Part shown: one piece after another, positions 9,296-27,376 of the stretch | How the letters are laid out: each line of letters starts with the position of its first letter | Numbering within the stretch: the stretch's first letter is position 1 | Virus record (IMG/VR): IMGVR_UViG_3300031111_000010 | Span: 1 to 64,000 of that record | Origin: a virus | Direction: 5' to 3' (one strand) | DNA length: 64,000 nt | Translations under genes and position numbers: made by a program | Notes under the pieces: model-generated | Seen by the model: only the letters and a program-made list of their open reading frames with translations | What the model was told of the DNA's origin: nothing | The model's database searches: none

Positions 9296-9640
9296 TTAGA
9301 GCTTGAAATCATCCTCTCCAAATTCATCATGAATCGAATGTTCCCGAATGAACTTATCAGCCCATATATTTTTTGCTTCATCACTATGACCATACCCAAC
9401 ACCAGTATATTCATCAATATATTGTTTTGCTTCTTTCAACCCCCATCCTGTTTGTGCTCTTACTTCTTTAATAGCAGCAATCTTTCTACCAGCACGAATC
9501 TCATTAGCAATAGCCATTACATCTGAGAATTTACCACCATATACTATTTTACCTTCACCAAATACAAAATCATTTGGATTGATATCTGATATAACAATAC
9601 AAATACCTCTACCGGGAATATTCATCAATTCACTTTTCAT
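9296..9640 (-). CDS. ribosomal protein bL12 (L7/L12) C-terminal-domain protein
   Basis: KIAAIKEVRAQTGWGLKEAKQYID matches the bL12 CTD core KIxVIKEVRxITGLGLKEAK. Confidence 0.8.
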   Translation of the reverse strand: MKSELMNIPGRGICIVISDINPNDFVFGEGKIVYGGKFSDVMAIANEIRAGRKIAAIKEVRAQTGWGLKEAKQYIDEYTGVGYGHSDEAKNIWADKFIREHSIHDEFGEDDFKL

Positions 9641-10117
9641 TTAAAATCTCCATGCAATCATTGTACTGATACACCCACCATCAATAGGCACTATCAGAGT
9701 TTTAAAACTTAATCGATCATATCCAATCTCTACTACAGGAGAGATACCAATAGAAAATCCTTCTACATTAGGAAACTTCTCCTTATATCCATACATCAAA
9801 CCAATCGGTAATGTACCCCTAATAAAAAAAGGATTATTAAAAGGTTTCCATTTAGGTGTCATGAATTCATATCCAGCAGAATATGTTTGATCATAGTGAG
9901 AATTCTTAAATGTCAAACCAAACCATTGATTATATGAAACCATAATTGCATTATTATTTTCGTTATATGGTCTTTTATCAGGTTCATCACGTTCACTCCA
10001 ATGATGTGCAGTTGGAGCATAACCAATGACCAAATCAGCAGCATTACATGATTTACATAAAAGAAATCCAATCAATACTCCAACCAACAAAATATATATT
10101 TTATATCCTTGAGTCAT
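9641..10117 (-). CDS. outer-membrane beta-barrel protein, PagP-like
   Basis: signal peptide, C-terminal WRF, HHW..YNENN..FKNSH..AGY motifs resembling PagP. Confidence 0.5.
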   Translation of the reverse strand: MTQGYKIYILLVGVLIGFLLCKSCNAADLVIGYAPTAHHWSERDEPDKRPYNENNNAIMVSYNQWFGLTFKNSHYDQTYSAGYEFMTPKWKPFNNPFFIRGTLPIGLMYGYKEKFPNVEGFSIGISPVVEIGYDRLSFKTLIVPIDGGCISTMIAWRF

Positions 10118-10476
10118 TTTCTTTCTCTTTCGATCTTCAATAGTGGGTTACCATCAATTATATCATCAGCCATATCGACATCCCATAAACCAGTACGTTC
10201 AGCTAAATCATAAGCATCTATTTTCCATTTATCATGCTTATCAAGATAATCAAGACGTTCACTACTCATATCCCATTGACCAGTATCAAAATAGGCACGA
10301 TCTACCTCAGAAACCTCTCTCCTTGGCGTAAAACCACCCTTATGAGCTTTAATACCTTTCATATATCGTTTGAAAGTATGCTTTACACCACCAGTGATAT
10401 CCCAAGGCCAATATGGTAAATGATCCTTAATCCATTTCCAGACATCTTTCGGATATATTTTCTTATCCCAATTCAT
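10114..10476 (-). CDS. hypothetical protein
   Basis: ATGA-coupled ORF in operon. Confidence 0.5.
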   Translation of the reverse strand: MNWDKKIYPKDVWKWIKDHLPYWPWDITGGVKHTFKRYMKGIKAHKGGFTPRREVSEVDRAYFDTGQWDMSSERLDYLDKHDKWKIDAYDLAERTGLWDVDMADDIIDGNPLLKIERERK

Positions 10477-10682
10477 AGTGCAAACTCCATTTCAGTAAAG
10501 AAATCATCACTTCTCACATTGGCAGCTTCTGCTTTTACTTCCCGAATATGCTTGCATTCAGCCCTGCGAAACTTCCAATGTGGACATGAGCAACCCCATG
10601 TTTCACCATCATCAGCCAAACTAACAACATACTCACGGTCAGAACTGTGACTTTTGACATACCACCTTGATACCCATTTCAT
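10473..10682 (-). CDS. SWIM zinc-finger protein with C-terminal tag
   Basis: WGCSCPHW...CKHI; ends FFTEMEFAL. Confidence 0.75.
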   Translation of the reverse strand: MKWVSRWYVKSHSSDREYVVSLADDGETWGCSCPHWKFRRAECKHIREVKAEAANVRSDDFFTEMEFAL

Positions 10683-10887
10683 AATAAATCTCCTTTTTGA
10701 TTTACTTTTAATGCTCTTTTCTTATCAGCTTCATATATAAGAGAAGAAATCCAAACAGGTATAAATAAAAAAACATACCATGAAACAATAGCTTCAATTA
10801 TTTCATGTATCAACCAATTATTAAAAACTGCATATATAATAACAAAAAGATTGATAACAGTAACAAATATAAATGTCTGTTTCATGA

Positions 10888-11271
10888 TCAAATCCTTTTT
10901 TCAAGGTTATTACAACATTCTGGACATCTATCAATCAAATCCAATATCGAAATATTTACATCAACCACTTTATCATAGTGTTGTGGATATGTCAAGGCTA
11001 AATCCGGTACATCCACAAGCGGTGAATTGTGATTATATCCACGTTTCAGCATTTCAGCAGCAAGCACATCATGCCTTGACTGTAAAGCATTCAACTGAAT
11101 CTGTACAACAGGATCAAATCGACCATCGATCTTATGCCCCTTCCGAAATGACGGTATATGTTTGTGAATCTCACCATGCTCACCTAAGAGATGCTTACGA
11201 CATAATATAGCGGGGTCTACCATCCACATACGAATTTTAATCACCACCTTTCTATTGTGTACGTTCTCCAT
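10888..11271 (-). CDS. pyrimidine dimer DNA glycosylase/endonuclease V family protein
   Basis: RMWMVDPAILCRKHLLGEHGEIH...RHDVLAAEMLKRGYNHNSPL. Confidence 0.75.
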   Translation of the reverse strand: MENVHNRKVVIKIRMWMVDPAILCRKHLLGEHGEIHKHIPSFRKGHKIDGRFDPVVQIQLNALQSRHDVLAAEMLKRGYNHNSPLVDVPDLALTYPQHYDKVVDVNISILDLIDRCPECCNNLEKRI

Positions 11272-12578
11272 TTACCGTAAAAGGAAGACAAAATAAATAG
11301 ACAAAAACACTTCCACGATGATCAGGATTATCATATTGAATTTGCTTATAGTCAATAAGTTTTTTCTTAACAACACCATGATATTTTTTTGTATTGATAT
11401 ATGTACCTACTTCTGCAACAAAACTCAATGGCATTTCAAAATTCTCAATAAGATTACTATAATCAGGTTTTAATGTTATACCATCAATAATGTTTACCAG
11501 ACATTTATTCATTAGTAGCACCTGTTCTTTCCAAGGCTTTTCATTTTCAGAAAATCCTTTTTAGGGTAAAAGTAAAACCATACCGGATTCATCAATCCCT
11601 TTTCCTTATCAGCTTTTGCTCTTTCAACATATACTTCATGAAACTTATCAACAGAAACAGTATCACTTTCCATCAATGTTAGTATTTCATCAGGCCGAAG
11701 ATAACCAGACCATTCAGTACCCTGATTGCATCTACATTTCTGAGCAATCTCATATACCTTTTTCTTCAGAGCAACACGTTTTTTATATATATCCAATGCT
11801 TTTCCCATTATACCCCCCATATAGCCATTTTGATAATGTTCATAACTTGAATAAAAATATACAAGATAAGAAAACCAATTGCCCATTTCAAAACCGTACA
11901 AATAATAGCATCACGTTTATTTGTATTATACACTTTCATTTTCTTCTCCTTATCTATTATATTGATCAGCAAACTTCTTAAGATCATCAGCATATTCCAG
12001 CTTGAATTCCCATGCTGTATATGGGTCTTCATTACCAAAAGTGCTATGGGTATCGTTATGCCAATCAGCACCACCCCATATGGACAAAGAATCCAAAAGC
12101 ATTGTAAGAGAAGGATTGTTCACCAGAATACCATTATAGATAAACAATCGGCAAGTATTATTAGGCGTTAAACTAAATTCAACTCTTTTCATTTTCTTCT
12201 CCTTATGATCATTCATACCATTTTCCTTCCCTGCCACAAAGTTCATCAAAACAATCTTCCATCATTTCATTTTGAATTCCATTTCCAATCAATCGAATCA
12301 TACGAACATTGTAACAACCAGCAGCACCACCCAATTTAGGATGATTACATACAAGCACATTATATTCAGCTTTTCCACAATGAATACAGTTAACACATAT
12401 CTTTTTCATTATAGCACCATTGCAAGAATAATAACGATGTTAGCGATAACCAGACCAATCATAATCTGATTCCATGCCTTATGATCAAAACGATATTCAA
12501 TCTCATCCATCTCAATATACTCATGATTAAAAAGGTCTTTGTTTTCCATGCCCATTCTCCTGTTTGACTATATAGAGA

Positions 12579-12594
12579 TGCACATCATATGCCA
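12579..12594 (-). promoter_or_regulatory. sigma54-like -24/-12 element
   Basis: TGGCAT-ATGAT-GTGCA just upstream of a minus-strand gene with AGGAG RBS. Confidence 0.45.
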
Positions 12595-12935
12595 AAATCA
12601 TCATCAAATTGTTTTTTATCGTAAATCATCATTAATCTACAACATACAGCAATAAAAAATACAAAAAATTCAAGAGGTTGAAATAGAATATTAAATAATA
12701 TATCAATAATGGCAATCCAGAACAGACTAAATGAAAATCCCATTATAACTATGAAAAGTAGGTAAAAAAATAACATTTTTTGGCAACCTTTGACAATTTT
12801 TGTAACACACATGCTTACGTCATATTCAAATAAAGCACCTATATCAAAATATAAAAAAAATGTCAACAAAAAACTTGACAATCAAGAATCGTGCCATATA
12901 TTACATTCAAATCAAGAAAAAAGGAGGAAATCATT

Positions 12936-13295
12936 ATGTTTTCAGAAAGTATTTTAGACAAATTATTTAATCCAACATTTAACACAGCGTTTGAAAGTGC
13001 ATATCAAAGAAACGATGATGGTAATATTGAAATGGAAATTGAAGTACCCGGATTTAATAAGGACACTCTAAATGTGGAAATATCCGAAGGTATTCTAACC
13101 GTTGAAGGTAAAACCCAAAAAAGACAAATCTATAAGCAATTCCAACTTGGTAATGTAGAAGATGTTCAAGCAATTGTTCAAGATGGTATTCTAACTCTAA
13201 CCCTGATGGAAACACAAAAACAGGTAAAAAGAATTGAATTGAATAAACCACAAATCGAAGATAAGAGAGATAATATAATCGACGCTGTTTCCTAA
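12936..13295 (+). CDS. small heat-shock protein Hsp20
   Basis: IEVPGFNKDTLNVEISEGILTVEG...AIVQDGILTLTL; AGGAGG RBS; TTGACA..TATATT promoter upstream. Confidence 0.9.
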   Translation: MFSESILDKLFNPTFNTAFESAYQRNDDGNIEMEIEVPGFNKDTLNVEISEGILTVEGKTQKRQIYKQFQLGNVEDVQAIVQDGILTLTLMETQKQVKRIELNKPQIEDKRDNIIDAVS

Positions 13296-13320
13296 TTCTA
13301 TTTTACAATCTTAATTATGA

Positions 13321-13352
13321 AATGCTCCTGAGAAATCGGGGGCATTTTTTTT
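13321..13352 (+). terminator. intrinsic terminator
   Basis: AATGCTCCTGA...TCGGGGGCATT hairpin plus T-run. Confidence 0.6.
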
Positions 13353-13370
13353 ACAAATTCACAATAAAAA

Positions 13371-13378
13371 TATAAATA
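13371..13378 (+). promoter_or_regulatory. T4-type late promoter TATAAATA
   Basis: exact consensus upstream of 13407. Confidence 0.7.
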
Positions 13379-13406
13379 TATATGAACAGATAAAATAGGA
13401 GATATT

Positions 13407-14120
13407 ATGCGATTTACAAAATACCTAAAAGAAGAAATTAAAATCAAAGGTGGACAATCAGCCGGGAAACTTGAATTAGACAAAACACCAGTAGAAAAGG
13501 CTAGAGCATTTGCAGAGAAAAAAGGTTTTGATTTAGATAAAGAAATACCAAACTTTGATGAGAACTATAAAAAAGCACAGCAACTAGCAAAATTGGGTAA
13601 GACCAAAAGAAAAGACATGCCTGTAATCAATGATGATGATGTTAAGAAATTCCAAAAGAGATTAGAAAACGGAACACTTGATATCAATAAGCCATTTGCT
13701 AAAGACCCTGATGTTGGTAGTAATCCATTTCCAGAAGGACTAAAAGGATTAGCAGCAAAGAAATGGTTAGAAAAAGGTTTGAAAGATGGATCAAAAACTG
13801 ATGATATAATAGACGTTGATATTACCAAAGTAGCAGTAAAAGATTTAAAGCCTATCCAAAGACAGATATATTATGATAAATCCATGGGAGCAACTATAGA
13901 AAATGGAGTAAAAACATCATTAAACTTTGTAACTAACAAATCATTTTTCATTATTAGTGGTGATAACTATATAATCGACGGTCACCACAGATATCTAACA
14001 GCACTAATACTTGATCCAAAAGCAAAAGTAAATGCACTTAAAATCAATCTACCAATTAAAAAACTATTACCAATGGCAACAGCCTATGGAGATGCTATCG
14101 GTAACAAGAGAAATGCATAA
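13407..14120 (+). CDS. ParB/Srx-like domain protein, putative internal protein
   Basis: LKPIQRQI...IISGDNYIIDGHHRY; MRFTKYLKE tag; own late promoter. Confidence 0.7.
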   Translation: MRFTKYLKEEIKIKGGQSAGKLELDKTPVEKARAFAEKKGFDLDKEIPNFDENYKKAQQLAKLGKTKRKDMPVINDDDVKKFQKRLENGTLDINKPFAKDPDVGSNPFPEGLKGLAAKKWLEKGLKDGSKTDDIIDVDITKVAVKDLKPIQRQIYYDKSMGATIENGVKTSLNFVTNKSFFIISGDNYIIDGHHRYLTALILDPKAKVNALKINLPIKKLLPMATAYGDAIGNKRNA

Positions 14121-14329
14121 TGAAATGAGATATACAAGAGAACAACTCAAAGTAATCTTACAATACATCAAAGAAGAAGATGTTGGTGAAATTGAAACTA
14201 TGGCATATGGAACATACACTACATTAGAAACTGATTCAATCAATCGGCTTATGTTAAAATACAAAATAATATGGTTGCATGATGAACCATATGAAGTTCA
14301 ATTGATTCCAAAAGACATATTAATATAGT

Positions 14330-14662
14330 TTACAGGAAATATAAATAAGCCATAATTAAAATTGTATAATGTATTGCCTGATCAAAACCAATCACAACGA
14401 AAAACCAATGATATTCCTTTTTTTCGTATAAAACATGTGTAGCTTTTGATGTAAAGAAGTCAACAATAAAATGAGCAACACCAGCATATACAGCATACCA
14501 AATTCCAAAATATAAAAATGGTAATGAATAAACAAAACAATGAGCACCTAATGCCTTTGCTGATTTCCATTTATTATGTGCCATCCATGTTGATTGAAGT
14601 ATAAAATCAGCTAAAAAATGTATCCAAATAATCATTAAAAGGTCATAAACAGGTAATTCCAT
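14330..14662 (-). CDS. DUF3307 family membrane protein
   Basis: HFLADFILQ...H...HFIVD...GFDQAIH. Confidence 0.85.
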   Translation of the reverse strand: MELPVYDLLMIIWIHFLADFILQSTWMAHNKWKSAKALGAHCFVYSLPFLYFGIWYAVYAGVAHFIVDFFTSKATHVLYEKKEYHWFFVVIGFDQAIHYTILIMAYLYFL

Positions 14663-15158
14663 CTTTCCCCCTATTTTATACTAATATAATATAGAATATT
14701 TCTCATTTATCGTGAGCATATGCTAACGTATTATCTATCTTGAATCACGCCAAAATATCCTCATAAATACCACACACTTACATGATCAAATATCCAGCAA
14801 GCAATACAAACCAAGCAGCATACCATGTGTTCCTGCCATCCTGATCAATGATAATAGCCATTGCCATTGTAAAGCCAAGATACGTTCCAAAAAATAAACT
14901 CTTAAACATCTTATTCCCCTTTCTTTTTTATTACAAATATACGTTCAAACCATGACCAATCCAAACTACCAAAAAATCTACTCACTAAAACACATATCTT
15001 AATCAGCCACCAAAAAGGACCATGAACCAATATCGTATACCAATGAACACCATCTAAATCAGGATCAACCCCTCTATCGTTTTCATCTCTCCATTCTATA
15101 TATCGATACAAACCAATAATAGCCCATATCCCTAATACGATTGATTTAAAAAGTAAAC

Positions 15159-15491
15159 TCATATCTCAAAATCCTTTAAATCAAACATAGCAAAAGGACA
15201 ATACACAACACCATTTTCATTTATTATATATTGTTTACCTGTATCCATATCCTCTATACCATATAACATAATACGGCTACCACCATCATAATCTTTATTC
15301 TCATCACCATGCCTTGCCTTTGCTACAATTCGATATGTCTTATTTTCTTTAGGTAAATATTTCTCATGATTATATCCACGACCATTACAATCATTAACCC
15401 ATTTAGTCAATCTCATATATTCAGCCATATTCCTATAGCTAGTATATGTACATCCATTTTTAATCACTATGAGAAAATCACCAATTTCCAT
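15159..15491 (-). CDS. hypothetical protein with variant C-terminal tag
   Basis: ends MFDLKDFEI. Confidence 0.5.
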   Translation of the reverse strand: MEIGDFLIVIKNGCTYTSYRNMAEYMRLTKWVNDCNGRGYNHEKYLPKENKTYRIVAKARHGDENKDYDGGSRIMLYGIEDMDTGKQYIINENGVVYCPFAMFDLKDFEI

Positions 15492-15846: not shown

Positions 15847-16128
15847 TCATACCTCCATTTCTTTCTCATTTAAAAATTCATCTTTTTCTATTGATAAAAA
15901 GAACATATTAAAAAAAGGCCAATCCATCTGATGATCTTTAGTAGCTATATCACTAACTGAAATAGGATACTTCTGATATCCTTCTTTAACCCTATATCGA
16001 TATATCTCACCTTCTCTACAAAATATATCACCATCATTCAAATATCCATCCTCTATGCATTTACAATATTTCATAACACTATCATCCCAAATATCCCAAA
16101 GAACACACATTTTCCAATAATAACCCAA
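15847..16128 (-). CDS. hypothetical protein with C-terminal tag
   Basis: ends FLNEKEMEV; true start probably MKYCK overlapping the upstream stop. Confidence 0.55.
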   Translation of the reverse strand: MGYYWKMCVLWDIWDDSVMKYCKCIEDGYLNDGDIFCREGEIYRYRVKEGYQKYPISVSDIATKDHQMDWPFFNMFFLSIEKDEFLNEKEMEV

Positions 16129-17029: not shown

Positions 17030-17068
17030 TATCCTATCCTATCCAATCTTAAATCCTTTCATATCTCC

Positions 17069-17548: not shown

Positions 17549-17624
17549 TAAAATCTCCTTTCATATGAAGCGACCATACATCTTTTGATATGATCTGTCA
17601 ATAGAAAAATATAAAAGCTAAGTA

Positions 17625-19719: not shown

Positions 19720-20037
19720 CTATGTTGGTGGGGGGTCAAGTATAGAAAATTCCTCAAAGGTAATAAAGTCTTTTTCTGCAAACCATTTTTCATGCCAACC
19801 AAAAGGATAGCCTTTCATTTTATGAGTATAGTTATGGAAATCATATTCTTTAAAGAAATGTGTTTCTCCCATCATCTCAATCATAGTGTTAGTTAATACC
19901 CAATCCAATTTTATTCTATTCAAGGTGATACTCATTCTTATTACACTACCGTCTTTATTCCATTTATCAGCTATAGGTTTAAAACGATTTTGGAATTGAT
20001 CTACTGTTATTAAGGTATATTTTATATATTCATTCAT
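19720..20037 (-). CDS. hypothetical protein with near-terminal tag
   Basis: FITFEEFSI six residues before stop. Confidence 0.5.
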   Translation of the reverse strand: MNEYIKYTLITVDQFQNRFKPIADKWNKDGSVIRMSITLNRIKLDWVLTNTMIEMMGETHFFKEYDFHNYTHKMKGYPFGWHEKWFAEKDFITFEEFSILDPPPT

Positions 20038-20321
20038 AGCGTAAATTCATCCTTATCAATAAAGTTATCTACAGGTTCTTCTTTAATCCAATCGTCATGA
20101 TAAACCCAATGATCATCAGTAAGTTCTTGTACCCATCTATAGCCATTATTGTAATCATGTCTATGCCTACCACCTTCTATTAATGGTTGTACTTCTATGA
20201 TGGTTCCAAAGTATCGTATCATGTCTTTATTAATAAAGAAGTTGCCTTTATAATGATAACCATCAGATTCACTTCCATCTAAATAATCCAGTTCTGATAT
20301 ATTTTTTAATAATATTTTCAT
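20034..20321 (-). CDS. hypothetical protein with C-terminal tag
   Basis: ends FIDKDEFTL. Confidence 0.55.
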   Translation of the reverse strand: MKILLKNISELDYLDGSESDGYHYKGNFFINKDMIRYFGTIIEVQPLIEGGRHRHDYNNGYRWVQELTDDHWVYHDDWIKEEPVDNFIDKDEFTL

Positions 20322-20698
20322 ACGCTAAACTCACATTGTTTGATGAATCCTATATCTCTATTATGGTACATCGACTTCCATATATTTCTAAAGTAATTTC
20401 TATCCACATCTTTAGTCCATATGCTGTTATGTTGTTTTAAATATCTACCATGGATATCTGTAGCATAATTGGATATAAAGAAGATAGCATTAGTATCACC
20501 TGTACGTTGCCAGTATTCCCTTATTACATCACGGTACATAAAATCATCCTTGGCATCTATATTAGTCATGAAGGATAGACCCTTGTTTTTTATAAAGTCA
20601 GTATCAGGACCGGCTGAATGATTTTTATATGGTGGTACATTTAATCTATCATAGTGACCATGGATAAAATCTGAGGATTTTTCATTCCAATAACTCAT
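20318..20698 (-). CDS. hypothetical protein with C-terminal tag
   Basis: ends FIKQCEFSV. Confidence 0.55.
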   Translation of the reverse strand: MSYWNEKSSDFIHGHYDRLNVPPYKNHSAGPDTDFIKNKGLSFMTNIDAKDDFMYRDVIREYWQRTGDTNAIFFISNYATDIHGRYLKQHNSIWTKDVDRNYFRNIWKSMYHNRDIGFIKQCEFSV

Positions 20699-20976
20699 AA
20701 TACAAACTCACTTTCTTCTATGAACTCTTGATCTTTTGCATATATTATTCCTGTCCTATGTTCATATCCATAACAAGTAGATTTATCATTATCGATACTT
20801 ATTAAACCGGGACATGAATAACAGTCATTACATTTACCGGGACAGAAACGATCTATTTTGGTTATTATTCCTTTTTTTCTTTTTTCATTTTCAGTTTCAG
20901 GATAACCTACATAAACCTTTATTTCCATACCTATCTTTAGATGTTCATATGCATCATGTTTGTAGTAGATACTCAT
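20695..20976 (-). CDS. Cys-rich hypothetical protein with C-terminal tag
   Basis: ends FIEESEFVL. Confidence 0.55.
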   Translation of the reverse strand: MSIYYKHDAYEHLKIGMEIKVYVGYPETENEKRKKGIITKIDRFCPGKCNDCYSCPGLISIDNDKSTCYGYEHRTGIIYAKDQEFIEESEFVL

Positions 20977-21488
20977 AATACAAACTCACTTTCTTCTATA
21001 AATAATTTTCTTGGTCTTTCTTTCTTTAATGGTTCTAATTCTTTCTTTATTGCTATATATTCATTTAAAGATGTTATTGCTGGTCTTTGAATACCGAAAA
21101 AATTCTCTTGACTTTCTATCCTTCTTACTATGCTTTTTATCTGTGAATGTTTTGCTTCTAGATGTCTTAGATGTTCCAGTTTCTTTCTGTAATAGGAATA
21201 AAGAGCATCTTGTTTTGATCTATAGGCAAATAGCTTTCTTGGTGTAATATTATGTTCCAATTGCTTTTTTATCCATTTCTTGTATCGTGTATTAACTTCA
21301 TTTGTATGGTAATGATAGTCTGGTACGATCCAATAGCCTTCAGGGGTTTCTCTGTATGCTCTATATCTGTTTTCTATTGGTTCTGCATTATAGCTTCCAG
21401 AACATGGGTCTTGATATCGATAGAAATAGATTTCTTCTCTTATCTCTATTGGTGCCATCTCATCAAATCGTAGTGGGAATATGTTCAT
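20973..21488 (-). CDS. hypothetical protein with C-terminal tag
   Basis: ends FIEESEFVL. Confidence 0.55.
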   Translation of the reverse strand: MNIFPLRFDEMAPIEIREEIYFYRYQDPCSGSYNAEPIENRYRAYRETPEGYWIVPDYHYHTNEVNTRYKKWIKKQLEHNITPRKLFAYRSKQDALYSYYRKKLEHLRHLEAKHSQIKSIVRRIESQENFFGIQRPAITSLNEYIAIKKELEPLKKERPRKLFIEESEFVL

Positions 21489-21676
21489 AGTTCCATATCG
21501 CTTTCTGTTATGAAATTATTATTTGTACATAATTTTTCCATATCATCTATTTGAACATAGTGAGCAGCACAATAAAATGGTAGAGTATCTACATCTAGAG
21601 TTGTAATTTTGTTTACTCTCAGATTACAGCAATAGTCAGTGTATCGTTTTCTACCTGTTACCGGACAAGTTATCAT
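21485..21676 (-). CDS. hypothetical protein with C-terminal tag
   Basis: ends FITESDMEL. Confidence 0.55.
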   Translation of the reverse strand: MITCPVTGRKRYTDYCCNLRVNKITTLDVDTLPFYCAAHYVQIDDMEKLCTNNNFITESDMEL

Positions 21677-22176
21677 AGTTGCATATCGCTTTCTGAAAGG
21701 AAGTCACCTAACTTCTCTCTTTCTTCTTTGCATAGTGGGCATTCTTTATGGAATCTGGTATCATAGAATACTGTATTATCACCATGCTTAGTACATTGAG
21801 TAAATATATTATATATTCCCGGTTCACCTTCTCTAAGTTCTTGGAGTCTTTTGATTGCTTTATCTATTTCTTTTATATCATCTATATCTATTTCTGCTGA
21901 TGATTGATTGGAATAGGTAGAAGCAGAAGAAGAACCAAAAGATATAGGAGATAATCGATCAGATATAGGAGATAATCGATCAACCCTTTTGGGAATATCG
22001 ATATCACCGTATTCATCTGTCATTATTGAATGATGTATAGGCCATTTGAATTCAGGTTCTTCTGTAGGTTTTCTTGAAATGAAATTAAGTTCTCTTTCCT
22101 TCCAGTAGTTAACAGGATCAGTTTTTTCTTTGATTGCCTTATATACATTCTCATATAAGTCTTTGAATTTCCACAT
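21673..22176 (-). CDS. hypothetical protein with C-terminal tag
   Basis: ends FLSESDMQL; CxxH..CxxC. Confidence 0.55.
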   Translation of the reverse strand: MWKFKDLYENVYKAIKEKTDPVNYWKERELNFISRKPTEEPEFKWPIHHSIMTDEYGDIDIPKRVDRLSPISDRLSPISFGSSSASTYSNQSSAEIDIDDIKEIDKAIKRLQELREGEPGIYNIFTQCTKHGDNTVFYDTRFHKECPLCKEEREKLGDFLSESDMQL

Positions 22177-22403
22177 ATTTATATCCTTATATATACCTTT
22201 TTATATACTTTTTTATTTTTCAGAAAGTGAGTATTATTTTATATATCTCTTAGCAGTAAAAGCAATGAACGGATAAAATAATACGATTGTAAAAAACTGC
22301 TTTACATATTCCCATAGAGTAGTATTCGATCTTTGCTCTTGGGTAATTACTATTAGCCATATGATTAATCCACATACAAAATATATTCCAAGTAAAAATG
22401 ATA

Positions 22404-22718
22404 TCATATTTCCATTTCCTTTTCGTTTATAAAGTCTTCTGGTTCTGGTTCTGCTACTTGAATATTAGAAACTTTACAATAATGTCCTTTTGATTTCTCC
22501 CACCATTGTAAACATTTTGAACACAGGTAATATTGTTTTTTGCCTCTATCACCTTGACCCCAATATATCTGTATTGGAATTTCTACTTTCTTCTCATGAT
22601 ACATACAGGAAGATAGACTATAAGTTTCATCCTTGCTTGAAATATAATGTCCAAGTTTATGACAATGTTCAGTTGAAAAATTATAATGAACACATGATAA
22701 ACAAATTAAATCACTCAT
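22404..22718 (-). CDS. Cys/His-rich hypothetical protein with C-terminal tag
   Basis: ends FINEKEMEI. Confidence 0.55.
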   Translation of the reverse strand: MSDLICLSCVHYNFSTEHCHKLGHYISSKDETYSLSSCMYHEKKVEIPIQIYWGQGDRGKKQYYLCSKCLQWWEKSKGHYCKVSNIQVAEPEPEDFINEKEMEI

Positions 22719-23125
22719 AGTTCCATATCTTTCTCAGTGAGAAATTCCTCTCTTGGTTCTGTTTTTAATTGTATCTCCCATCTTCCATTTAAAAATATGT
22801 ATTTTATTTGACCTAATTGTGGCTTATTGGGAATTACGTTTCGTATCTTTATATCACCTTCTCTTGGTTCCCTTCTATGTCTATTATCACCAAGAGGACC
22901 ATATGTTGCCCATCCATCAGAGTTAAGTACTGATATATTTTCACCCCATCGTTCTCTAAATTCCTGTTCTCTCCTTGCAAGATGCTCTCTCATTCTTCCT
23001 TGAACATTGGCATGTGTTCTAAGCCTATCCAGATGTTCATTGTATTTTTTATTTTCTTTGTATTTAATAAAGAAAATAACAACCCATGCAAGAACTATTA
23101 TACCCATAAGAATAAATCGTATCAT
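22715..23125 (-). CDS. membrane-anchored protein with C-terminal tag
   Basis: N-terminal TM; ends FLTEKDMEL. Confidence 0.55.
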   Translation of the reverse strand: MIRFILMGIIVLAWVVIFFIKYKENKKYNEHLDRLRTHANVQGRMREHLARREQEFRERWGENISVLNSDGWATYGPLGDNRHRREPREGDIKIRNVIPNKPQLGQIKYIFLNGRWEIQLKTEPREEFLTEKDMEL

Positions 23126-23353
23126 TAAAATACTCCTTTAAAACAGAAATCAATAATAGAATATCCCACAATGAAAAATACTAATATCATAAACAATAAA
23201 ACAAGTTGTGCTCTCATGTCATTACCTCACTTATAAAATATAATAGTTTATTGATATAAGGAAAAATCATTTCCAATCCACCAAAGAAAATAAACATCAA
23301 CGCAAACCATATTATAAGTCCTGCTATCAAACCACAACTATCTTTCGCTATTC

Positions 23354-23740
23354 TTATAATAATTTTAAATCTCCTGTGATTAAATCGATTTCATCAGACC
23401 ACCAAGGACCAATAGCACAACAGGTATAAGTAGGTTCCTTAAATTCAGTCCTACCGGCATCCTTGATCAATGCACAAGGTATCTTTCTGAACTTGGCATG
23501 ATCATGTACAAAAATCAATACATCTTCATTAGGAACACCAACACATATCTTTACAAATGATTCTTCAAGCCATTGTTGAGCAGGATCATTCTTAGGAATA
23601 AAGATTCTATATTCCTTACTGCCTGAAGCATAGCAATTCAACAAAACAGCTAATGATGCATGAGCACCTTGAGCAACCATTTTACCTTTTCTCATATTAA
23701 GGTCTTTTCTCATTACGATAACTTGTTTAACTTCTCTCAT
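23354..23740 (-). CDS. pth2: peptidyl-tRNA hydrolase Pth2
   Basis: KQVIVMRKDLNMRKGKMVAQGAHAS...IKDAGRTEF..PTYTCCAIGP...ITGDLKLL. Confidence 0.92.
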   Translation of the reverse strand: MREVKQVIVMRKDLNMRKGKMVAQGAHASLAVLLNCYASGSKEYRIFIPKNDPAQQWLEESFVKICVGVPNEDVLIFVHDHAKFRKIPCALIKDAGRTEFKEPTYTCCAIGPWWSDEIDLITGDLKLL

Positions 23741-23900
23741 ATTTCGTTTACCTTTAACCATTCTTTATATGCATGTGTATACTTTCTTGGATTCAGTTGG
23801 GTATAAAATACAAGTGTATCTCTATCGATTTCATATCCATCAGCATTAATAATATCAGTTTTAACTGAATCTTCTCCCATATAATATATTTTAAATTCTC

Positions 23901-24092
23901 TCATATTTCCATTTCCTTTTCTTCTATGAACTCTATTGCTTCCCAATAAAGATATTCCCTATCAATACAATGAAGTGTACCTGAGAAATAAACATCATTG
24001 GGTATGCCCTCATATTTCTCTCTATCGATACACCATCCTACTGAACATCCACCCCTTTGACCATGCTTACATGTACTACAACTTATTTCCAT
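23901..24092 (-). CDS. hypothetical protein with C-terminal tag
   Basis: ends FIEEKEMEI. Confidence 0.55.
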   Translation of the reverse strand: MEISCSTCKHGQRGGCSVGWCIDREKYEGIPNDVYFSGTLHCIDREYLYWEAIEFIEEKEMEI

Positions 24093-24484
24093 TATAACAT
24101 CATTTCACTTTCAGATATAAAAGCCTTTGCTGGTTTGACATACATTCTTTTTGTAACAAACTTCTTTTTTTCGTATTCAGCTTCCCATTTAATATCAGCC
24201 AGTGTAATGTTATGTGGTATCTCTTTTACTATCCTATATATACCCCTGTCAATAATTTTTAAATAACCAGCACCTGTCAGATAGCTTCGATATGTATCTA
24301 CAGTTCTCTCTTTATAACCATTTCCAACACATTCCATCATTAAATTATATCTAAATATTATATTGTGATCAAATCTTTCATTGATATAATTTCGCATAAA
24401 ATCCAGAAGTGGTACTCTACCTCTTGGTCTATATCTTGGTAAATCTTCAGGCATCTCTATTCTAAATCCCGGCATGTGTATCAC
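24092..24484 (-). CDS. putative winged-helix protein with C-terminal tag
   Basis: TVDTYRSYLTGAGYLKIIDRGIYR; ends FISESEMML. Confidence 0.5.
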   Translation of the reverse strand: MIHMPGFRIEMPEDLPRYRPRGRVPLLDFMRNYINERFDHNIIFRYNLMMECVGNGYKERTVDTYRSYLTGAGYLKIIDRGIYRIVKEIPHNITLADIKWEAEYEKKKFVTKRMYVKPAKAFISESEMML

Positions 24485-24633
24485 CTTGTTGTACTTCTAA
24501 TAATCTTTCAAGTTCAGTTACTTGTCTGACCAAATCCTGAATCATCTTCTCTTTTTGTTCTACATTATATCGTAGTGACTCTATAAGAGAATCTTTATCT
24601 TCTTCTATTTCTTCTGGTTCATTTCCAAGTATA

Positions 24634-24909
24634 TCATTGAACATAAAAATCTTCCTTTGTTAAAAAATTGGCTTGTGGTCCTGTACATTCATATGGTAAT
24701 CTTTCTTCTGATAATACTTCTCCTTCCTGATTAAAGTATATAAGGTTATGCCATCTCATATGACCACTACCGCTTTTCTGTACGCCTTTCATCAAACCAC
24801 AATACCTACATACCTTTACTTCATCCACCATGATAATTTTGGTTCCTATCCTATGTTGTTTTCTGACTTTACATCGATCCTTCTTCTCTTTTTTCCAACT
24901 ATGTCTCAT
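24634..24909 (-). CDS. hypothetical protein with near-terminal tag
   Basis: ends FLTKEDFYVQ. Confidence 0.5.
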   Translation of the reverse strand: MRHSWKKEKKDRCKVRKQHRIGTKIIMVDEVKVCRYCGLMKGVQKSGSGHMRWHNLIYFNQEGEVLSEERLPYECTGPQANFLTKEDFYVQ

Positions 24910-25171
24910 ATCAAATACATTCCTATCACACCACTAATATATACCATAAAATATGCAAAGAAAACATACATAGAAACTTTATCTTTTATATTAACCAAAA
25001 AAAGCAATGGAAGACAATATAAAATTCTCATCAGCATTGCTTTATTTAATGTCCATCCAAAATAATTCATACACCACAAAATAAAACTATTACTTTCTTC
25101 TCCAATAAAAATCGTGAAGACTGAATCTAATATAATTAATAAAAACAATGCTATTGTCCATTTTCTAATTC

Positions 25172-25555
25172 TCACAGTTTCATATCACTTTCTTCTATAA
25201 ATTCTTTATCTTCTTTATCTAACCTGAAAGGGAATTTTAAAGGTTTCCATTCGTTTCTCATTTTCGTTGATTGATATTCTATTACTAATTTTTCCAGTTC
25301 CCTTCTTTTCCATTCTATATTATAATCATTTAATGCAGGTTCAACACAATATTGAAGTTCTCTTACTATGATATCAAATGCTCTTTGAGATATCCTTCTG
25401 CCTCTAAACATCTGTATGACACGTTCAATCAATCTATCTTCAGTTCGATGTACTTCCCTTTGATATAATTCTCTTTCTCTTTCTCTCTCCAATCTTTCAT
25501 ACTGTCCATTGAGAATTCTTCTTTGAACTTCATTCCAATCATTATTAGGTGCCAT
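25172..25555 (-). CDS. hypothetical protein with C-terminal tag
   Basis: ends FIEESDMKL. Confidence 0.55.
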   Translation of the reverse strand: MAPNNDWNEVQRRILNGQYERLERERERELYQREVHRTEDRLIERVIQMFRGRRISQRAFDIIVRELQYCVEPALNDYNIEWKRRELEKLVIEYQSTKMRNEWKPLKFPFRLDKEDKEFIEESDMKL

Positions 25556-26268
25556 TATATCTCATCCATTGAAAAGATAATTGAATTGCTTTTCAGTTCC
25601 ATTATCTCTTTTCTTAATGATCTTACTTTATTTTCCAACTTACCAATCATGTTATTTCTCTTTAATACCCTATCCTTATAATCTGAAATTATTTCTTCTT
25701 TTCTTTCAAGCGAATCATATAAATTCTCTAATTCCATTTTTACATCACATTCATCACAATCAACACGATTACTGAAATGACCAGTTTCAATAAAATCATC
25801 CATCATACGTTGCATCATAAAAGCACTATTACCAGCTACTTCAAATAGTCTGTTCAGGAACATAATCATAGAATCTTTATTCACATGATCTTTCCAACCT
25901 CTGATTTGTGTATGCATATCATCCTTTGTTTCGAAAACCGCTTTTGTTTCTTCTTGGATTTGTGCTTGAACTCTGGCATGTAATTCTTCTCTTACATCCC
26001 AAACAGAAGACTCTTGAGAATCTTCTGTTTCTCTTTCCATCATTATTCTTCTTATTAATTCACTACGGTTCTGTCTTTCCGTAGTATTACTTTCTGCTGC
26101 TCTACGTTCTAGATTAGCTGCCATTTCCATGACTTCAAAAGGTCTTAATGATTTACTAAAATTATTAAGTTTTATCCATCCATTATTAGAACGAATATTA
26201 GGAAAACGCCCATGAAGATTATGATAAGCTGTTGTATAACGTCTTATTGCTGACACAGTTTCATTCAT
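25555..26268 (-). CDS. coiled-coil hypothetical protein
   Basis: long ORF coupled to neighbours. Confidence 0.5.
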   Translation of the reverse strand: MNETVSAIRRYTTAYHNLHGRFPNIRSNNGWIKLNNFSKSLRPFEVMEMAANLERRAAESNTTERQNRSELIRRIMMERETEDSQESSVWDVREELHARVQAQIQEETKAVFETKDDMHTQIRGWKDHVNKDSMIMFLNRLFEVAGNSAFMMQRMMDDFIETGHFSNRVDCDECDVKMELENLYDSLERKEEIISDYKDRVLKRNNMIGKLENKVRSLRKEIMELKSNSIIFSMDEI

Positions 26269-26677
26269 TTTATTCTACCTTTATATTTTCTTGAAATTCT
26301 CCATCCTCTACTGCCAGTTCCATACGATTGTTCTCATATTTCACCTATATCATCAAATAAATTTTCTTCTTCTTTTTCTGGTGGTAAATCAATCCAACTA
26401 CCATCATCTGTATTCCAACCATCACTACCTGCATTCCAAGAATCACCTGTATCCCAAAGGGTATCTTTATTTTCAGCAACCATATATAATGATTTCAATT
26501 CATTATCCCATTCATACATATTTCCAGTTTTTATAAAGATTTCTTCCAATAGCTCATTAGAATAATAGCTACTTGGAAAATTCTCTGATTCTGTTACTCT
26601 AATCCATACCCCTCTTTTCTCTAATTCTCTATCAGGAAATACACTTTTGTATAGCTTCATTACAGATTCTATTTTAT

Positions 26678-27055
26678 TCATAATCCATATACTCCTATCT
26701 TAGCTTCACCATGACCACAAGTAGGACATTTTTCTTCGACCAACCAATAGTTAACATGGAATTTGTTAAGTAATACTTGTTTGATTATATCGGCATGGCA
26801 GGGTTTAGGTGAGCAGTAGCAAATGAGATTACACTTACCATGTTCAATTAGATATGCTTCGATAATCTGCAATGCTGAGATTATTGGTCTATCACGCTTT
26901 TGGATAGCGTTCTTAAGCATTGCTCCATATCGTTGAAGTACGATAGGTCTTAATTCTTCATCTGTTAACTTAAACGGATTGGCTAACGGTGAAGGTCTAC
27001 CTACATAAAATCCATCTCCTGTCCAATTTTTTTTGTTGCGTACAGTGATTTCCAT
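26678..27055 (-). CDS. DUF4326 family protein
   Basis: YVGRPSPLANPF...LICYCSPKPCHADII. Confidence 0.85.
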   Translation of the reverse strand: MEITVRNKKNWTGDGFYVGRPSPLANPFKLTDEELRPIVLQRYGAMLKNAIQKRDRPIISALQIIEAYLIEHGKCNLICYCSPKPCHADIIKQVLLNKFHVNYWLVEEKCPTCGHGEAKIGVYGL

Positions 27056-27067
27056 TTCTTCTCCATA

Positions 27068-27376
27068 TCATAACCTCATTTCTCCATCGGTTAAGAATTT
27101 TTCTATTATTTTTTCATATACATGCAAAACATATCTTGGACTACATATCACAGTTTTGATGAATTGTAAATGATTATCATCAAAAACACTACCAGTATGC
27201 ATTGTATAGAATTCTCTTACTTCTGTATTATCTCTGTTTCTTTTATCTATCTCAAACCAGATATTTAAATCTCTATTAATCATAGCGATATTTAATACTT
27301 TTGATTTTACAGGAACAAGTAATCTTGTTGATGTTTCATGTCCATATTGTAATGAATATTTCCATATTATCTTCAT
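27068..27376 (-). CDS. hypothetical protein with C-terminal tag
   Basis: MKIIWKYSL...TGS...VLHVYE; ends FLTDGEMRL. Confidence 0.6.
   Translation of the reverse strand: MKIIWKYSLQYGHETSTRLLVPVKSKVLNIAMINRDLNIWFEIDKRNRDNTEVREFYTMHTGSVFDDNHLQFIKTVICSPRYVLHVYEKIIEKFLTDGEMRL

What the first reader, a model, noticed from the sequence alone, without database searches (positions are those of the whole stretch)
9296..27376. One C-terminal nonapeptide tag on at least 14 unrelated small proteins
Seen: proteins with unrelated bodies (SWIM finger, wHTH-like, membrane-anchored, Cys-rich) end exactly in F-[ILF]-x-[EKDQ]-x-[DE]-[MF]-x-[LIV]-stop. They are FFTEMEFAL (10473), FLNEKEMEV (15847), FIDKDEFTL (20034), FIKQCEFSV (20318), FIEESEFVL (20695 and 20973), FITESDMEL (21485), FLSESDMQL (21673), FINEKEMEI (22404), FLTEKDMEL (22715), FIEEKEMEI (23901), FISESEMML (24092), FIEESDMKL (25172) and FLTDGEMRL (27068). 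Variants occur at 9296, 15159, 19720, 24634 and at the end of the DUF932 gene. Codons differ between copies (TTC/TTT, CTC/CTT/TTA/ATA), so conservation is largely at protein level. No structural gene has it. It does not match the T4 clamp-binding SLDFLF, ssrA or SSB-Ct motifs. Inference: a phage-wide addressing system, either a degron or a docking peptide that tethers a library of effectors to one phage or host hub.
Basis: partly seen in the sequence, partly recalled or inferred. Interest (0 to 1): 0.9.

Follow-up and report, generated by a model that had tools for sequence, protein, structure and literature searches.

The report
Shared C-terminal tag on phage proteins
Fourteen otherwise unrelated small proteins of this uncultured T4-like phage, and dozens more in its relatives, end in the same nine-residue peptide on a floppy linker, which looks like an address label read by one partner that is still unknown.

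Summary
A strict pattern, F-[ILFVM]-x-[EKDQ]-x-[DE]-[MF]-x-[LIVM], occurs 16 times in the six frames of the 81 kb record. Fourteen copies stand directly before a stop, one stands one residue before a stop, and one lies in a short, probably non-coding plus-strand frame. About 0.001 terminal copies are expected.

It is a protein-level signal. Codon positions 1 and 2 are fixed and position 3 drifts. The tag persists where the next gene starts well after the stop with its own ribosome site. Of 43 genes with an overlap-type junction, 31 lack it.

It is lineage-wide. Forty more exact tags, and eight with one or two extra residues, sit in 11 of 23 syntenic relatives, mostly on different bodies. About 2.5 Mb of other phage DNA has none, and a 224 kb sister genome has none.

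Of 150 DUF7352 relatives, 15 close ones carry the tail and the rest stop at the domain. The tail is modelled as flexible.

The best reading is a docking tag for one common reader. The nearest known analogue is the hydrophobic-acidic clamp-binding tail of T4 gp43, gp55 and gp33. No reader was identified.

This scan has already noted other shared C-terminal tags in other phage lineages.

The parts
10473..10682 (-). SWIM zinc-finger protein (69 aa); tag FFTEMEFAL at 10476-10502
   Evidence: Orthologues in L084, L109, L114 and L116 keep the tag with a 2-residue KI or QI extension.
15847..16128 (-). Orphan protein (93 aa); tag FLNEKEMEV at 15850-15876
   Evidence: No Pfam or PHROG family.
20034..20321 (-). 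Orphan protein (95 aa); tag FIDKDEFTL at 20037-20063
20318..20698 (-). Orphan protein (126 aa); tag FIKQCEFSV at 20321-20347
20695..20976 (-). Cys-rich orphan protein (93 aa); tag FIEESEFVL at 20698-20724
20973..21488 (-). 171-aa protein (phrog_13631, unknown function); tag FIEESEFVL at 20976-21002
   Evidence: Orthologues in L100 (FIEEDEFII) and L112 (FIEEGEMIV).
21485..21676 (-). Cys-rich orphan protein (63 aa); tag FITESDMEL at 21488-21514
21673..22176 (-). Orphan protein (167 aa); tag FLSESDMQL at 21676-21702
   Evidence: The C-terminal 43 aa match L100 (FLSDEDMKL). This is the only tagged gene with a TATAAATA box directly upstream (22183).
22404..22718 (-). Cys-rich protein (104 aa); tag FINEKEMEI at 22407-22433
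22715..23125 (-). Protein (136 aa) with an N-terminal membrane-anchor-like segment; tag FLTEKDMEL at 22718-22744
   Evidence: The best 19-residue hydropathy window scores 2.82 at residue 2.
23901..24092 (-). Cys-rich protein (63 aa); tag FIEEKEMEI at 23904-23930
24092..24484 (-). 130-aa protein, winged-helix-like by Atlas structure look-alikes (a lead only); tag FISESEMML at 24095-24121
   Evidence: Orthologues in L101, L104, L106 and L109 keep the tag with M/F and I/L/F swaps.
25172..25555 (-). Orphan protein (127 aa); tag FIEESDMKL at 25175-25201
27068..27376 (-). DUF7352 protein (102 aa); tag FLTDGEMRL at 27071-27097. The next gene starts 12 nt after the stop, behind its own GGAG.
   Evidence: The tail lies outside the domain. 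15 of 150 family representatives carry it. Tail pLDDT falls from 62 to 48 against 96-98 for the body.
24634..24909 (-). Variant: tag FLTKEDFYV plus one residue (Q)
   Evidence: The next gene (MFNDILG...) starts inside the tag codons.
15159..15491 (-). Degenerate variant MFDLKDFEI
   Evidence: The orthologue in L100 ends in the canonical FISEKEMEV.
19720..20037 (-). Variant: FITFEEFSI followed by LDPPPT. This is the last gene of the block.
9296..9640 (-). Weak variant EFGEDDFKL (one residue short) on a protein with a fragment of the L7/L12 C-terminal domain

Best explanation
The nonapeptide is a short linear motif that works at the protein level as an address tag.

Its consensus is [DE]-F-[IL]-x-[EK]-x-[DE]-[MF]-x-[ILV]-COOH. 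It hangs on a short, variable, K/E/D/P-rich linker at the end of small proteins (59-176 aa) that are otherwise unrelated. These include a SWIM finger, a winged-helix-like body, zinc-ribbon-like Cys-rich bodies, an all-beta DUF7352 domain and a few membrane-anchored proteins.

One common partner reads the tag. The reading would use the F-[IL] pair, the invariant acidic residue and the terminal [MF]-x-[ILV]. The whole class of proteins is thereby docked to, or handed over to, the same machine.

Shown here: the tag exists, is position-specific, is selected as peptide rather than DNA, is modular, is flexible in a model, and is kept across a lineage while bodies turn over.

Inferred: that it is read by one partner. 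I also infer that the partner is more likely phage-encoded and lineage-specific than a universal host protein, because a sister T4-like genome lacks the tag and other T4-like lineages noted in this scan use other tags.

The single most likely reader, at roughly one in five, is the phage's T4-type sliding clamp. Its known clients gp43, gp55 and gp33 carry the same kind of tail.
For: Position and chance:
- 14 of 16 six-frame hits lie directly at a stop, and there are 0 internal copies in 150 called ORFs. About 0.001 terminal copies are expected.

Peptide rather than DNA:
- In 54 exact tags the information sits at codon positions 1-2 (TT..T., GA..T..T.). Position 3 varies, and M (ATG) alternates with F (TTT/TTC).
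- Position -10 is D or E in 37 of 54 tags, although the search pattern did not ask for it.

Not a junction by-product:
- The same profile appears in the 11 tags without a 4-nt or 1-nt overlap with the next start.
- In five of these, and in own 27068, the next start is 8 nt or more beyond the stop, in three cases with a plain GGAG or GGGG site of its own between stop and start.
- 31 of 43 genes with an overlap-type junction have no tag.

Lineage-wide and modular:
- 40 further exact tags plus 8 with 1-2 extra residues occur in 11 of 23 relative loci.
- Only a few bodies are orthologous between phages. Those keep the tag with conservative swaps.

Controls:
- 94 unrelated viral loci (about 1.67 Mb) gave 0 tags on a frame of 30 aa or more.
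- 82 T4-like polymerase loci (0.87 Mb) gave 0 exact tags.
- A tag profile found 9 matches in relative G003 and none in G001 (224 kb, 91% complete), G002 or G004.

DUF7352:
- 15 of the 150 best representatives carry the tag, all within the top 26 hits. The others end at the domain, with a median length of 91 aa.
- Pairwise identity is 43% in the body, 24% in the linker and 72% at the tag anchors.
- AlphaFold2 gives the body pLDDT 96-98 and the last 12 residues 62 falling to 48.

Known precedent:
- T4 gp43, gp55 and gp33 share 'hydrophobic and acidic' C-terminal clamp-binding epitopes on a divergent flexible linker, and these are freely interchangeable (PMC2988020, passages read).
- T4 gp43 ends ..SLDFLFG and gp55 ends ..SLDFLYEAND.
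- Sister-lineage polymerases end [DE]-F-[IV]-x-F and gp55 homologues end ..LSFIENFD... These share [DE]/S-F-I with the tag.

T4-type late boxes:
- TATAAATA sits 27-32 nt before the starts of TerL, portal and the N-tagged genes. This suggests a gp55/gp45-type late system.
Against: - No reader was identified.
- None of 59 T4-like polymerases and none of 21 gp55 homologues from related lineages ends in the full tag. If the tag lineage is among them, its clamp epitope is the ordinary F-I-x-F type and not the tag.
- The tag lacks the third hydrophobic residue of that epitope. It has a conserved E or K there and adds a second half.
- Nine of 63 tags tolerate 1-2 extra residues, so a free carboxylate at a fixed place is not obligatory.
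- The 54-tag logo is partly shaped by the search pattern itself.
- The record is only about 36% of the genome. The polymerase, clamp, gp55 and gp33 of this phage could not be read.
- Faint similarities among three bodies leave room for old paralogy for part of the set.
Confidence: 0.58

Rival explanations
1. Degron. The tag hands the whole class of small proteins to an unfoldase or protease for timed removal. The protease could be the host's ClpXP, ClpAP, Lon or FtsH. It could also be the phage's own PrkA AAA+ protein, with the vWA-type DUF444 protein or the 220-aa vWA protein as adaptor.

A bolder form: the variable bodies bind targets and the constant tail delivers the bound target, as an adaptor library.
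For: - The architecture (folded body, flexible linker, terminal peptide) suits degrons and adaptor tails.
- Only small non-enzymatic proteins carry the tag. The enzymes in the same block (PTH2, DUF4326, RtcB, Pyr_excise, nucleotidyltransferase) do not.
- The record encodes PrkA, DUF444 and SpoVR. BLAST found none of them in the tag-free sister genome G001.
- B. subtilis PrkA is reported to be an ATP-dependent protease (PMC9512850; title and start of abstract seen in the listing).
- A vWA protein with an intact MIDAS motif (D14, S16, S18, T82, D116 invariant in 18 orthologues) lies beside the cluster in every relative. That co-occurrence is by construction, because it was the search query.
- vWA MIDAS sites bind extended peptides (PMC7159879, passages read).
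Against: - The ending [MF]-x-[ILV], often with a charged -2 residue, does not resemble the non-polar ssrA-type ends (recalled).
- Nine of 63 tags carry extra residues after the motif.
- vWA homologues at 26-38% identity sit in phages without tags. G001 has a 35% vWA homologue and no tag.
- The PrkA-carrying phages in GenBank are Thermus and huge phages, not known tag carriers (their termini were not examined).
Confidence: 0.2
2. C-terminal capsid-targeting propeptide. The first half, F-[IL]-x-E, is a site for the T4-type prohead protease (Peptidase_S77). It mirrors the N-terminal capsid-targeting-like tags of the same phage. Tagged proteins would then be packed in the head and injected.
For: - T4 gp21 cleaves after L/I-X-E. 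The first 10 residues of IPIII target proteins to the head. Alt and gp21 are also processed at the C-terminus (PMC9026906, passages read).
- The record encodes Peptidase_S77, Gp23 and Portal_T4.
- About a dozen proteins begin M-R-F-K-x-Y-[LI]-x-E or ..LI[DE]KYL.E.
- 34 of 54 tags have [IL]-x-E at -8 to -6.
Against: - Position -6 is not E in 20 of 54 tags (K, Q, D and others). The invariant acidic residue at -4 is not preceded by L or I at the right spacing.
- The conserved second half and the exact distance from the end are not explained by this reading.
- Three of 54 tagged proteins have an N-terminal membrane-anchor-like segment.
- Only 1 of 14 tagged genes has the late-type TATAAATA box directly upstream, whereas the N-tagged and structural genes do have it. 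Read-through from upstream promoters is not excluded.
Confidence: 0.08
3. By-product at the DNA or RNA level. The sequence would be the ribosome-binding and coupling region of the next gene (ATGA overlap plus Shine-Dalgarno), a conserved recombination junction, or a nascent-peptide signal acting at termination. The peptide itself would have no function of its own.
For: - 43 of 54 tags overlap the next start by 4 nt or 1 nt. The third base of the last codon is A in 48 of 54.
- The purine-rich GAR-ANN-GAN can serve as a Shine-Dalgarno site for the overlapping start.
- Two neighbouring copies (20695 and 20973) are almost identical in DNA.
Against: - The conservation follows codon periodicity, and M/F and I/L swaps are conservative only at the protein level.
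- The profile is unchanged where the next start is separate and has its own site.
- 31 of 43 overlap-type junctions in the same genome lack the tag.
- About 2.5 Mb of other AT-rich phage DNA, with many overlapping genes, holds none.
- F and [IL] lie 24-27 nt upstream of the start, outside any ribosome site.
- There are no prolines or known arrest features (recalled).
Confidence: 0.04

Closest known systems
Sliding-clamp-binding C-terminal epitope of T4 gp43, gp55 and gp33 (and of T4-like polymerases and gp55 in general)
   Same: Both are a short hydrophobic-plus-acidic segment at or near the C-terminus, on a divergent flexible linker, shared by unrelated proteins of a T4-like phage and read by one hub (PMC2988020).

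T4 has SLDFLF(G) and SLDFLY(EAND). Sister lineages have [DE]-F-[IV]-x-F and LSFIENFD. These share the [DE]/S-F-I start with the tag.
   Different: - The full motif differs. It has E or K where the epitope has its last F, plus an extra [DE]-[MF]-x-[ILV] half.
- It sits on 14 or more small orphan proteins rather than three replication or transcription proteins.
- No polymerase or gp55 with the tag was seen.
- The clamp of this phage is not on the record, so binding could not be examined.
T4 capsid targeting sequence and gp21 (L/I-X-E) propeptides
   Same: Both are a short terminal peptide shared by otherwise diverse proteins of a T4-like phage. An aromatic-[IL]-x-E core is present, and the same genome has the N-terminal version.
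   Different: The tag is C-terminal with a conserved second half. E at -6 is present in only 63% of tags. Most tagged genes lack the late-type promoter box, and some tagged proteins look membrane-anchored.
Other hub-docking C-terminal peptides: SSB C-terminal tail, PIP box and beta-clamp motifs, SspB-type adaptor tails, class II PDZ ligands (all recalled)
   Same: All are acidic residues followed by hydrophobic-x-hydrophobic at the free end of a flexible tail, serving many clients of one hub.
   Different: The sequence does not match any of these motifs. No PDZ, SSB-partner or adaptor-receptor protein was identified here.
Shared C-terminal tags noted earlier in this scan in other phage lineages (e1-4772764, e1-5635575, e1-6112462: ..P-E-Y-F-[VLI]; e1-173140: acidic tail; e1-831089)
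   Same: In each case many unrelated small proteins of one phage lineage end in one lineage-specific peptide whose reader is unknown. The P-E-Y-F-V tag of another T4-like lineage shares the pattern acidic(-4), aromatic(-3), aliphatic(-1).
   Different: The motifs and lineages differ. Those notes are unchecked AI notes that I did not re-test.

Membership tests
T4-type clamp-binding C-terminal epitope | A short hydrophobic and acidic segment at or near the C-terminus, joined by a divergent flexible linker | tested here: met
   Logo. Linker identity 24% against 72% at the anchors. Tail pLDDT falls from 62 to 48. The defining description comes from PMC2988020.
T4-type clamp-binding C-terminal epitope | The same sequence motif as the epitope on the polymerase and gp55 of related T4-like phages | tested here: not met
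   0 of 59 polymerases and 0 of 21 gp55 homologues end in the tag. They end [DE]-F-[IV]-x-F or ..LSFIENFD... T4 has SLDFL[FY]. Only the [DE]/S-F-I start is shared.
T4-type clamp-binding C-terminal epitope | Carried by gp43, gp55 and gp33 of the same phage, and binds its gp45 | not testable with these tools
   The record is about 36% complete and has no DNA_PPF match. No gp45 or gp55 homologue was found by phmmer. No contig of the lineage with these genes was found.
T4 capsid targeting sequence / gp21 propeptide | L/I-X-E cleavage motif | tested here: inconclusive
   [IL]-x-E is present in 34 of 54 tags and absent in 20. The motif definition comes from PMC9026906.
T4 capsid targeting sequence / gp21 propeptide | Late expression and presence in the virion | tested here: inconclusive
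   Only 1 of 14 tagged genes has TATAAATA directly upstream, whereas structural and N-tagged genes have it. The virion content is not testable.
ssrA-type C-terminal degron | Non-polar last residues with an obligatory free carboxylate (recalled) | tested here: not met
   The ends are [MF]-x-[ILV], with E, K, Q or R common at -2. Nine of 63 tags have 1-2 extra residues. Degradation itself is not testable.
vWA/MIDAS peptide capture (MoxR-vWA type) | A vWA domain with an intact MIDAS motif encoded with the clients, which binds their peptide | tested here: inconclusive
   The MIDAS residues are invariant in 18 orthologues and the gene adjoins the cluster. However, vWA homologues also occur in tag-free phages. 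Binding was not established.
Small heat-shock protein I-x-I/V groove ligand | [IV]-x-[IV] motif (recalled) | tested here: not met
   Position -3 is M or F in the 54 exact tags, as the patterns required, and V in two looser ones. The phage Hsp20 has its own RIEL motif.

The most novel reading that the evidence does not exclude
T4-like phages run a proteome-addressing system that has not been described.

Each lineage would give a tenth or more of its genes (small, fast-evolving, early-type effectors) one lineage-specific C-terminal label. Here the label is [DE]-F-[IL]-x-E-x-[DE]-[MF]-x-[ILV]. In another T4-like lineage noted by this scan it is ..P-E-Y-F-V.

One dedicated, co-evolving phage-encoded reader would grip all of them and treat them as a class. 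It could tether them to the sliding clamp or RNA polymerase as a tool-belt of DNA-directed effectors. Alternatively it could deliver them, or the targets they hold, to an AAA+ machine such as the phage's PrkA with its vWA partners for timed removal.
Probability: 0.3. Interest if true: 0.9.

Novelty: new variant of a known kind. Interest (0 to 1): 0.74.

Why it matters
Most early genes of large phages are orphans with no handle for study.

A shared tag says that at least 14 of them here, and dozens in relatives, pass through one common partner. One pull-down with a ten-residue peptide could therefore place a whole class of unknown proteins in a pathway.

Other phage lineages noted in this scan carry different tags of the same architecture. 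This suggests a general, undescribed principle rather than a curiosity.

My four literature searches found the clamp-tail principle but no description of such a tag on many orphan proteins.

Tried and rejected
- **Complex prediction.** I submitted the vWA protein (alignment A4) with Mg, two copies of the Hsp20 alpha-crystallin domain, and the last 36 residues of a tagged protein (alignment A5) as partner. The score was 0.00, with the verdict 'no answer'. I draw nothing from it.
- **Finding the lineage's own polymerase, clamp and gp55.**
  - There is no DNA_PPF match in the own record or in G001 and G002.
  - A polymerase-based scan of viral contigs gave 80 loci, none with tags.
  - The listing of cluster members gave no accessions to link polymerases to the relatives' samples.
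- **A narrow DNA pattern scan of viral contigs.** It gave only two chance hits. The pattern was too strict.
- **Sister genome G001.** It shares only core genes with this phage and has no recurrent C-terminal motif of the polymerase type.
- **The conserved 192-aa neighbour (28922-29500) as a possible reader.** The Atlas gave no usable hit. The AlphaFold2 model was poor (pLDDT 61.5). Foldseek against the PDB gave nothing at E <= 0.001.
- **Promoter and terminator scan of 19-29 kb.** There were fewer sigma-70-like sites than in shuffles, so it was uninformative.
- **Host assignment.** vWA relatives lie on short contigs binned with Woesearchaeota and Thermoplasmata MAGs. I read this as probable mis-binning of low-GC phage DNA, not as host evidence. 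No cultured phage of the lineage was found.
- **PrkA in GenBank phages.** They are Thermus phages and huge phages. I did not examine their C-termini.
- **Pfam and PHROGs on the tagged bodies.** Only SWIM, DUF7352, an L7/L12 fragment and families of unknown function were found.

Full report
**What the record is**

The window is the first 64 kb of an 81,176 bp linear IMG/VR virus record. CheckV rates it about 36% complete. It belongs to a T4-like phage:
- The large terminase is about 36% identical to those of cyanomyophages.
- Pfam finds Gp23 major capsid, the T4 portal and the Peptidase_S77 prohead protease. It also finds PrkA, DUF444 and SpoVR.
- G+C is about 32%.
- The T4 late-promoter word TATAAATA lies 27-32 nt before the start codons of TerL, portal and several plus-strand genes. 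It lies directly before only one gene of the tagged block.
- DNA polymerase, clamp and gp55 are not on the record.

**The observation**

The strict pattern has 16 hits in the six frames of the whole record:
- 14 are followed at once by a stop.
- One is followed by one residue and a stop.
- One lies in a short plus-strand frame.

Of 150 ORFs called by a crude greedy caller, 13 end in the tag. The caller lost the 14th, 23901-24092. None has an internal copy. The expectation is 0.0012, and 2000 shuffles of the last 30 residues gave a mean of 0.0015.

With the tails removed, the 18 bodies show no significant BLAST similarity. Faint hints at E 0.015-0.1 link 20318, 20973 and 24092.

Family searches name only a few bodies. 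They find SWIM (10473), DUF7352 (27068), an L7/L12 C-terminal fragment (9296), and PHROG families of unknown function. Atlas structure look-alikes suggest a winged helix for 24092. That is a lead only.

**Peptide or nucleic acid?**

I collected 54 exact tags: 14 from this record and 40 from relatives.
- One search listed 54 rows for the relatives.
- I dropped 11 rows with one to three residues after the motif. Of those, 8 look genuine and 3 look like chance matches on the other strand or with loose fits.
- I also dropped 3 loose exact-end rows, either on the opposite strand or lacking the F.
- Of the 40 kept, 34 fit the strict pattern and 6 a looser one.

In the 54 tags, information sits at codon positions 1 and 2 while position 3 drifts. 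M (ATG) alternates with F (TTT/TTC), and I, L and F alternate at -8. Position -10 is D or E in 37 of 54, although the pattern did not ask for it. F, the acidic -4 and the hydrophobic positions are fixed partly by ascertainment.

For the junctions, 38 of 54 have a 4-nt overlap-type junction and 5 have TAATG. The remaining 11 have the next start after the stop. In five of those, and in own 27068, the next start is 8 nt or more away; in L101_7194, L084_13539 and own 27068 a plain GGAG or GGGG site of its own lies between the stop and that start. One of the 11, L100_3659, has the next gene starting inside the tag codons. The residue profile is the same in both groups.

In this genome, 31 of 43 genes with an overlap-type junction lack the tag. 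I conclude that the overlap and ribosome-site constraints shape the last codon's third base, and perhaps the frequent E at -2. They do not create the motif.

**Relatives and controls**

A vWA protein next to the cluster pulled out one syntenic IMG/VR relative, L084, at about 50% amino-acid identity. It also pulled out 20 metagenome contigs. TerL gave two more relatives, L001 and L002.

Eleven of these 23 loci carry tags. L084 alone has ten. Only its SWIM protein is BLAST-similar to a tagged protein of this record.

Where orthologues exist, the tag is kept with conservative changes:
- The 24092 family reads FISESEMML, FIDAGEFSV, FFTKGEFEI, FLSEDEMEI and FLDEDEFQV.
- The 20973 family also keeps it.
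- The degenerate end of 15159 corresponds to a canonical FISEKEMEV in L100.
- The SWIM family often adds KI or QI, which restores a hydrophobic-x-hydrophobic end.

Controls:
- 94 unrelated viral loci (about 1.67 Mb) have no tag on a frame of 30 aa or more.
- 82 T4-like polymerase loci (0.87 Mb) have none at the exact end.
- A profile of the 54 tails finds 9 matches in L084's record. It finds none in G001, a 224 kb, 91% complete sister genome with TerL 42% identical. It also finds none in two other records.

The tag is therefore a trait of one uncultured lineage. No GenBank phage belongs to it.

**Modularity**

I examined the 150 best representatives, out of 185 at E <= 0.001 in 1.84 billion proteins.
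- 15 carry the tag. All are among the 26 closest hits, with lengths of 99-109 aa.
- One further loose match looks like chance.
- The others end just after the last strand of the domain, with a median length of 91 aa.

Two closer homologues keep the tag with changes only at free positions. Within the tagged subfamily, pairwise identity is 43% in the body, 24% in the length-variable linker and 72% at the five anchor positions.

AlphaFold2 models the body at pLDDT 96-98 and the last 12 residues at 62 falling to 48. The six residues before the tag are rich in K, E, D and P.

The 54 tagged proteins have a median length of 104 aa and a wide range of pI. Three have an N-terminal membrane-anchor-like segment.

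**What it most likely does**

The tag is a conserved peptide at the free end of a variable, flexible linker. It is appended to unrelated folded bodies and kept while the bodies turn over. That is the signature of a short linear motif read by one partner.

The closest known case is in T4 itself. [quoted passage not shown]
- From the T4 record, gp43 ends SLDFLFG and gp55 ends SLDFLYEAND.
- In sister lineages of this phage, the polymerases end [DE]-F-[IV]-x-F (59 examined; G001's polymerase ends SDFIDFS).
- The gp55 homologues carry LSFIENFD near the end (21 examined).

The tag shares the [DE]/S-F-I start. It then has a conserved E or K where those epitopes have their last F, and it adds [DE]-[MF]-x-[ILV]. 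None of the 59 polymerases or 21 gp55 proteins carries the tag. I could not tell whether any of them comes from the tag lineage.

I therefore rate 'address tag read by one partner' at about 0.58. Within that, I rate the clamp as the best single candidate at about one in five.

**Rivals**

- **Degron or adaptor tail.** The record encodes PrkA with DUF444 and SpoVR, all absent from the tag-free G001 by BLAST. B. subtilis PrkA is reported as an ATP-dependent protease (PMC9512850, listing only). A 220-aa vWA protein with invariant MIDAS residues adjoins the cluster. vWA sites are said to capture extended peptides (PMC7159879, passages). Against this, vWA homologues also occur in tag-free phages.
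- **Capsid targeting.** It is suggested by F-[IL]-x-E, by the same genome's N-terminal Y-[LI]-x-E tags, and by C-terminal processing of T4 Alt and gp21 (PMC9026906, passages). It is weakened because 20 of 54 tags lack E at -6, because some members look membrane-anchored, and because late-type boxes are missing upstream.
- **A pure DNA or RNA by-product.** It is weakened by the periodicity, the separate-start cases and the controls.

**Earlier notes of this scan**

Earlier notes describe other phage lineages, two of them T4-like, in which many small proteins share a different C-terminal peptide. They also describe the N-terminal tags and the sigma-54-like boxes of this same genome. I did not re-test the notes on other genomes. 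They make a general phenomenon more likely, but they are not independent evidence.

**Limits**

- The gene calls are crude.
- The logo is partly defined by the search pattern.
- The co-occurrence of the vWA gene with the tags is by construction.
- Timing of expression is not known.
- The host is not known. A Shine-Dalgarno GGAG is used.

Noticed in passing
window 3083, 3730, 4374, 5041, 5999, 13407 (+); 57189, 57863 (-); also 8067, 8294, 7296 and genome 77588: About a dozen proteins begin M-R-F-K-x-Y-[LI]-x-E or ..LI[DE]KYL.E. This resembles the T4 capsid-targeting sequence with its L/I-X-E protease site. Several have TATAAATA 27-32 nt upstream. The bodies include a SprT-like protein (5243 lacks the tag; its neighbours have it).
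   Followed up: partly
window 24462-24644 and 1230-1547; L084 11167, 14344, 14556, 14932; L100, L101, L104: This is a third terminal motif. Small coiled-coil proteins begin M-[FY]-[DN]-D-I-L-G. They are conserved in every relative (42-72% identity) and have four paralogues in L084. They are usually encoded right after a tagged gene.
   Followed up: partly
window 2636, 8517, 13371 (+); 39658, 42472, 59396, 61000 (-); genome 77567, 79556 (-): The T4 late-promoter word TATAAATA stands 13-38 nt (mostly 27-32 nt) before the start codons of structural, packaging and N-tagged genes. This suggests a gp55/gp33/gp45-type late system, although those genes are not on the record.
   Followed up: partly
window 62831 to genome 67784: A full PrkA (AAA_PrkA + PrkA), DUF444 (YeaH-like, DxSxS motif) and SpoVR triad lies in a T4-like phage next to the terminase. 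In GenBank phages, PrkA appears mainly in Thermus phages and huge phages.
   Followed up: partly
window 27875-28537, 27652-27906, 28922-29500: A conserved trio sits beside the tag cluster in all relatives. It comprises a 220-aa vWA protein with invariant MIDAS residues, an 84-aa Cys/His protein, and a 192-aa protein family with no Pfam, PHROG, Atlas or PDB fold match.
   Followed up: partly
window 12891-13295: A phage Hsp20 (alpha-crystallin) gene lies on the opposite strand inside the small-gene block. It has its own RIEL (I-x-I-type) motif near the C-terminus.
   Followed up: partly
window 18814, 19181, 19220 (+); 18944, 19162 (-): Five TGGCA[CT]-N5-TTGC[AT] (sigma-54-like) boxes lie in the 1.2 kb gene-poor island that ends the tagged block. 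Earlier notes reported them, and I confirmed only the motif positions.
   Followed up: partly
L213, L214, L215: Close relatives of the vWA gene lie on 2-5 kb contigs binned into Woesearchaeota and Thermoplasmata MAGs. This is probably mis-binned low-GC phage DNA, but the host of the lineage is unknown.
   Followed up: no
window 34799-35758; L084 2036-2968: The DUF932 proteins of this phage and of L084 end ..ADEFRID and ..ENDFLID. This is a conserved acidic-F-x-I-D end that resembles the second half of the tag plus one residue.
   Followed up: no
window 27400-27489 and 27538-27624: Two tRNA-Ser genes (anticodons TGA and GCT) sit between the vWA block and the first tagged gene.
   Followed up: no
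L001 1694-1900: In a close relative (TerL 79% identical), a 68-aa Cys-rich tagged gene (FLNEKEFEI) sits just upstream of the terminase, where this record has none. Tagged genes are therefore not confined to one block.
   Followed up: no
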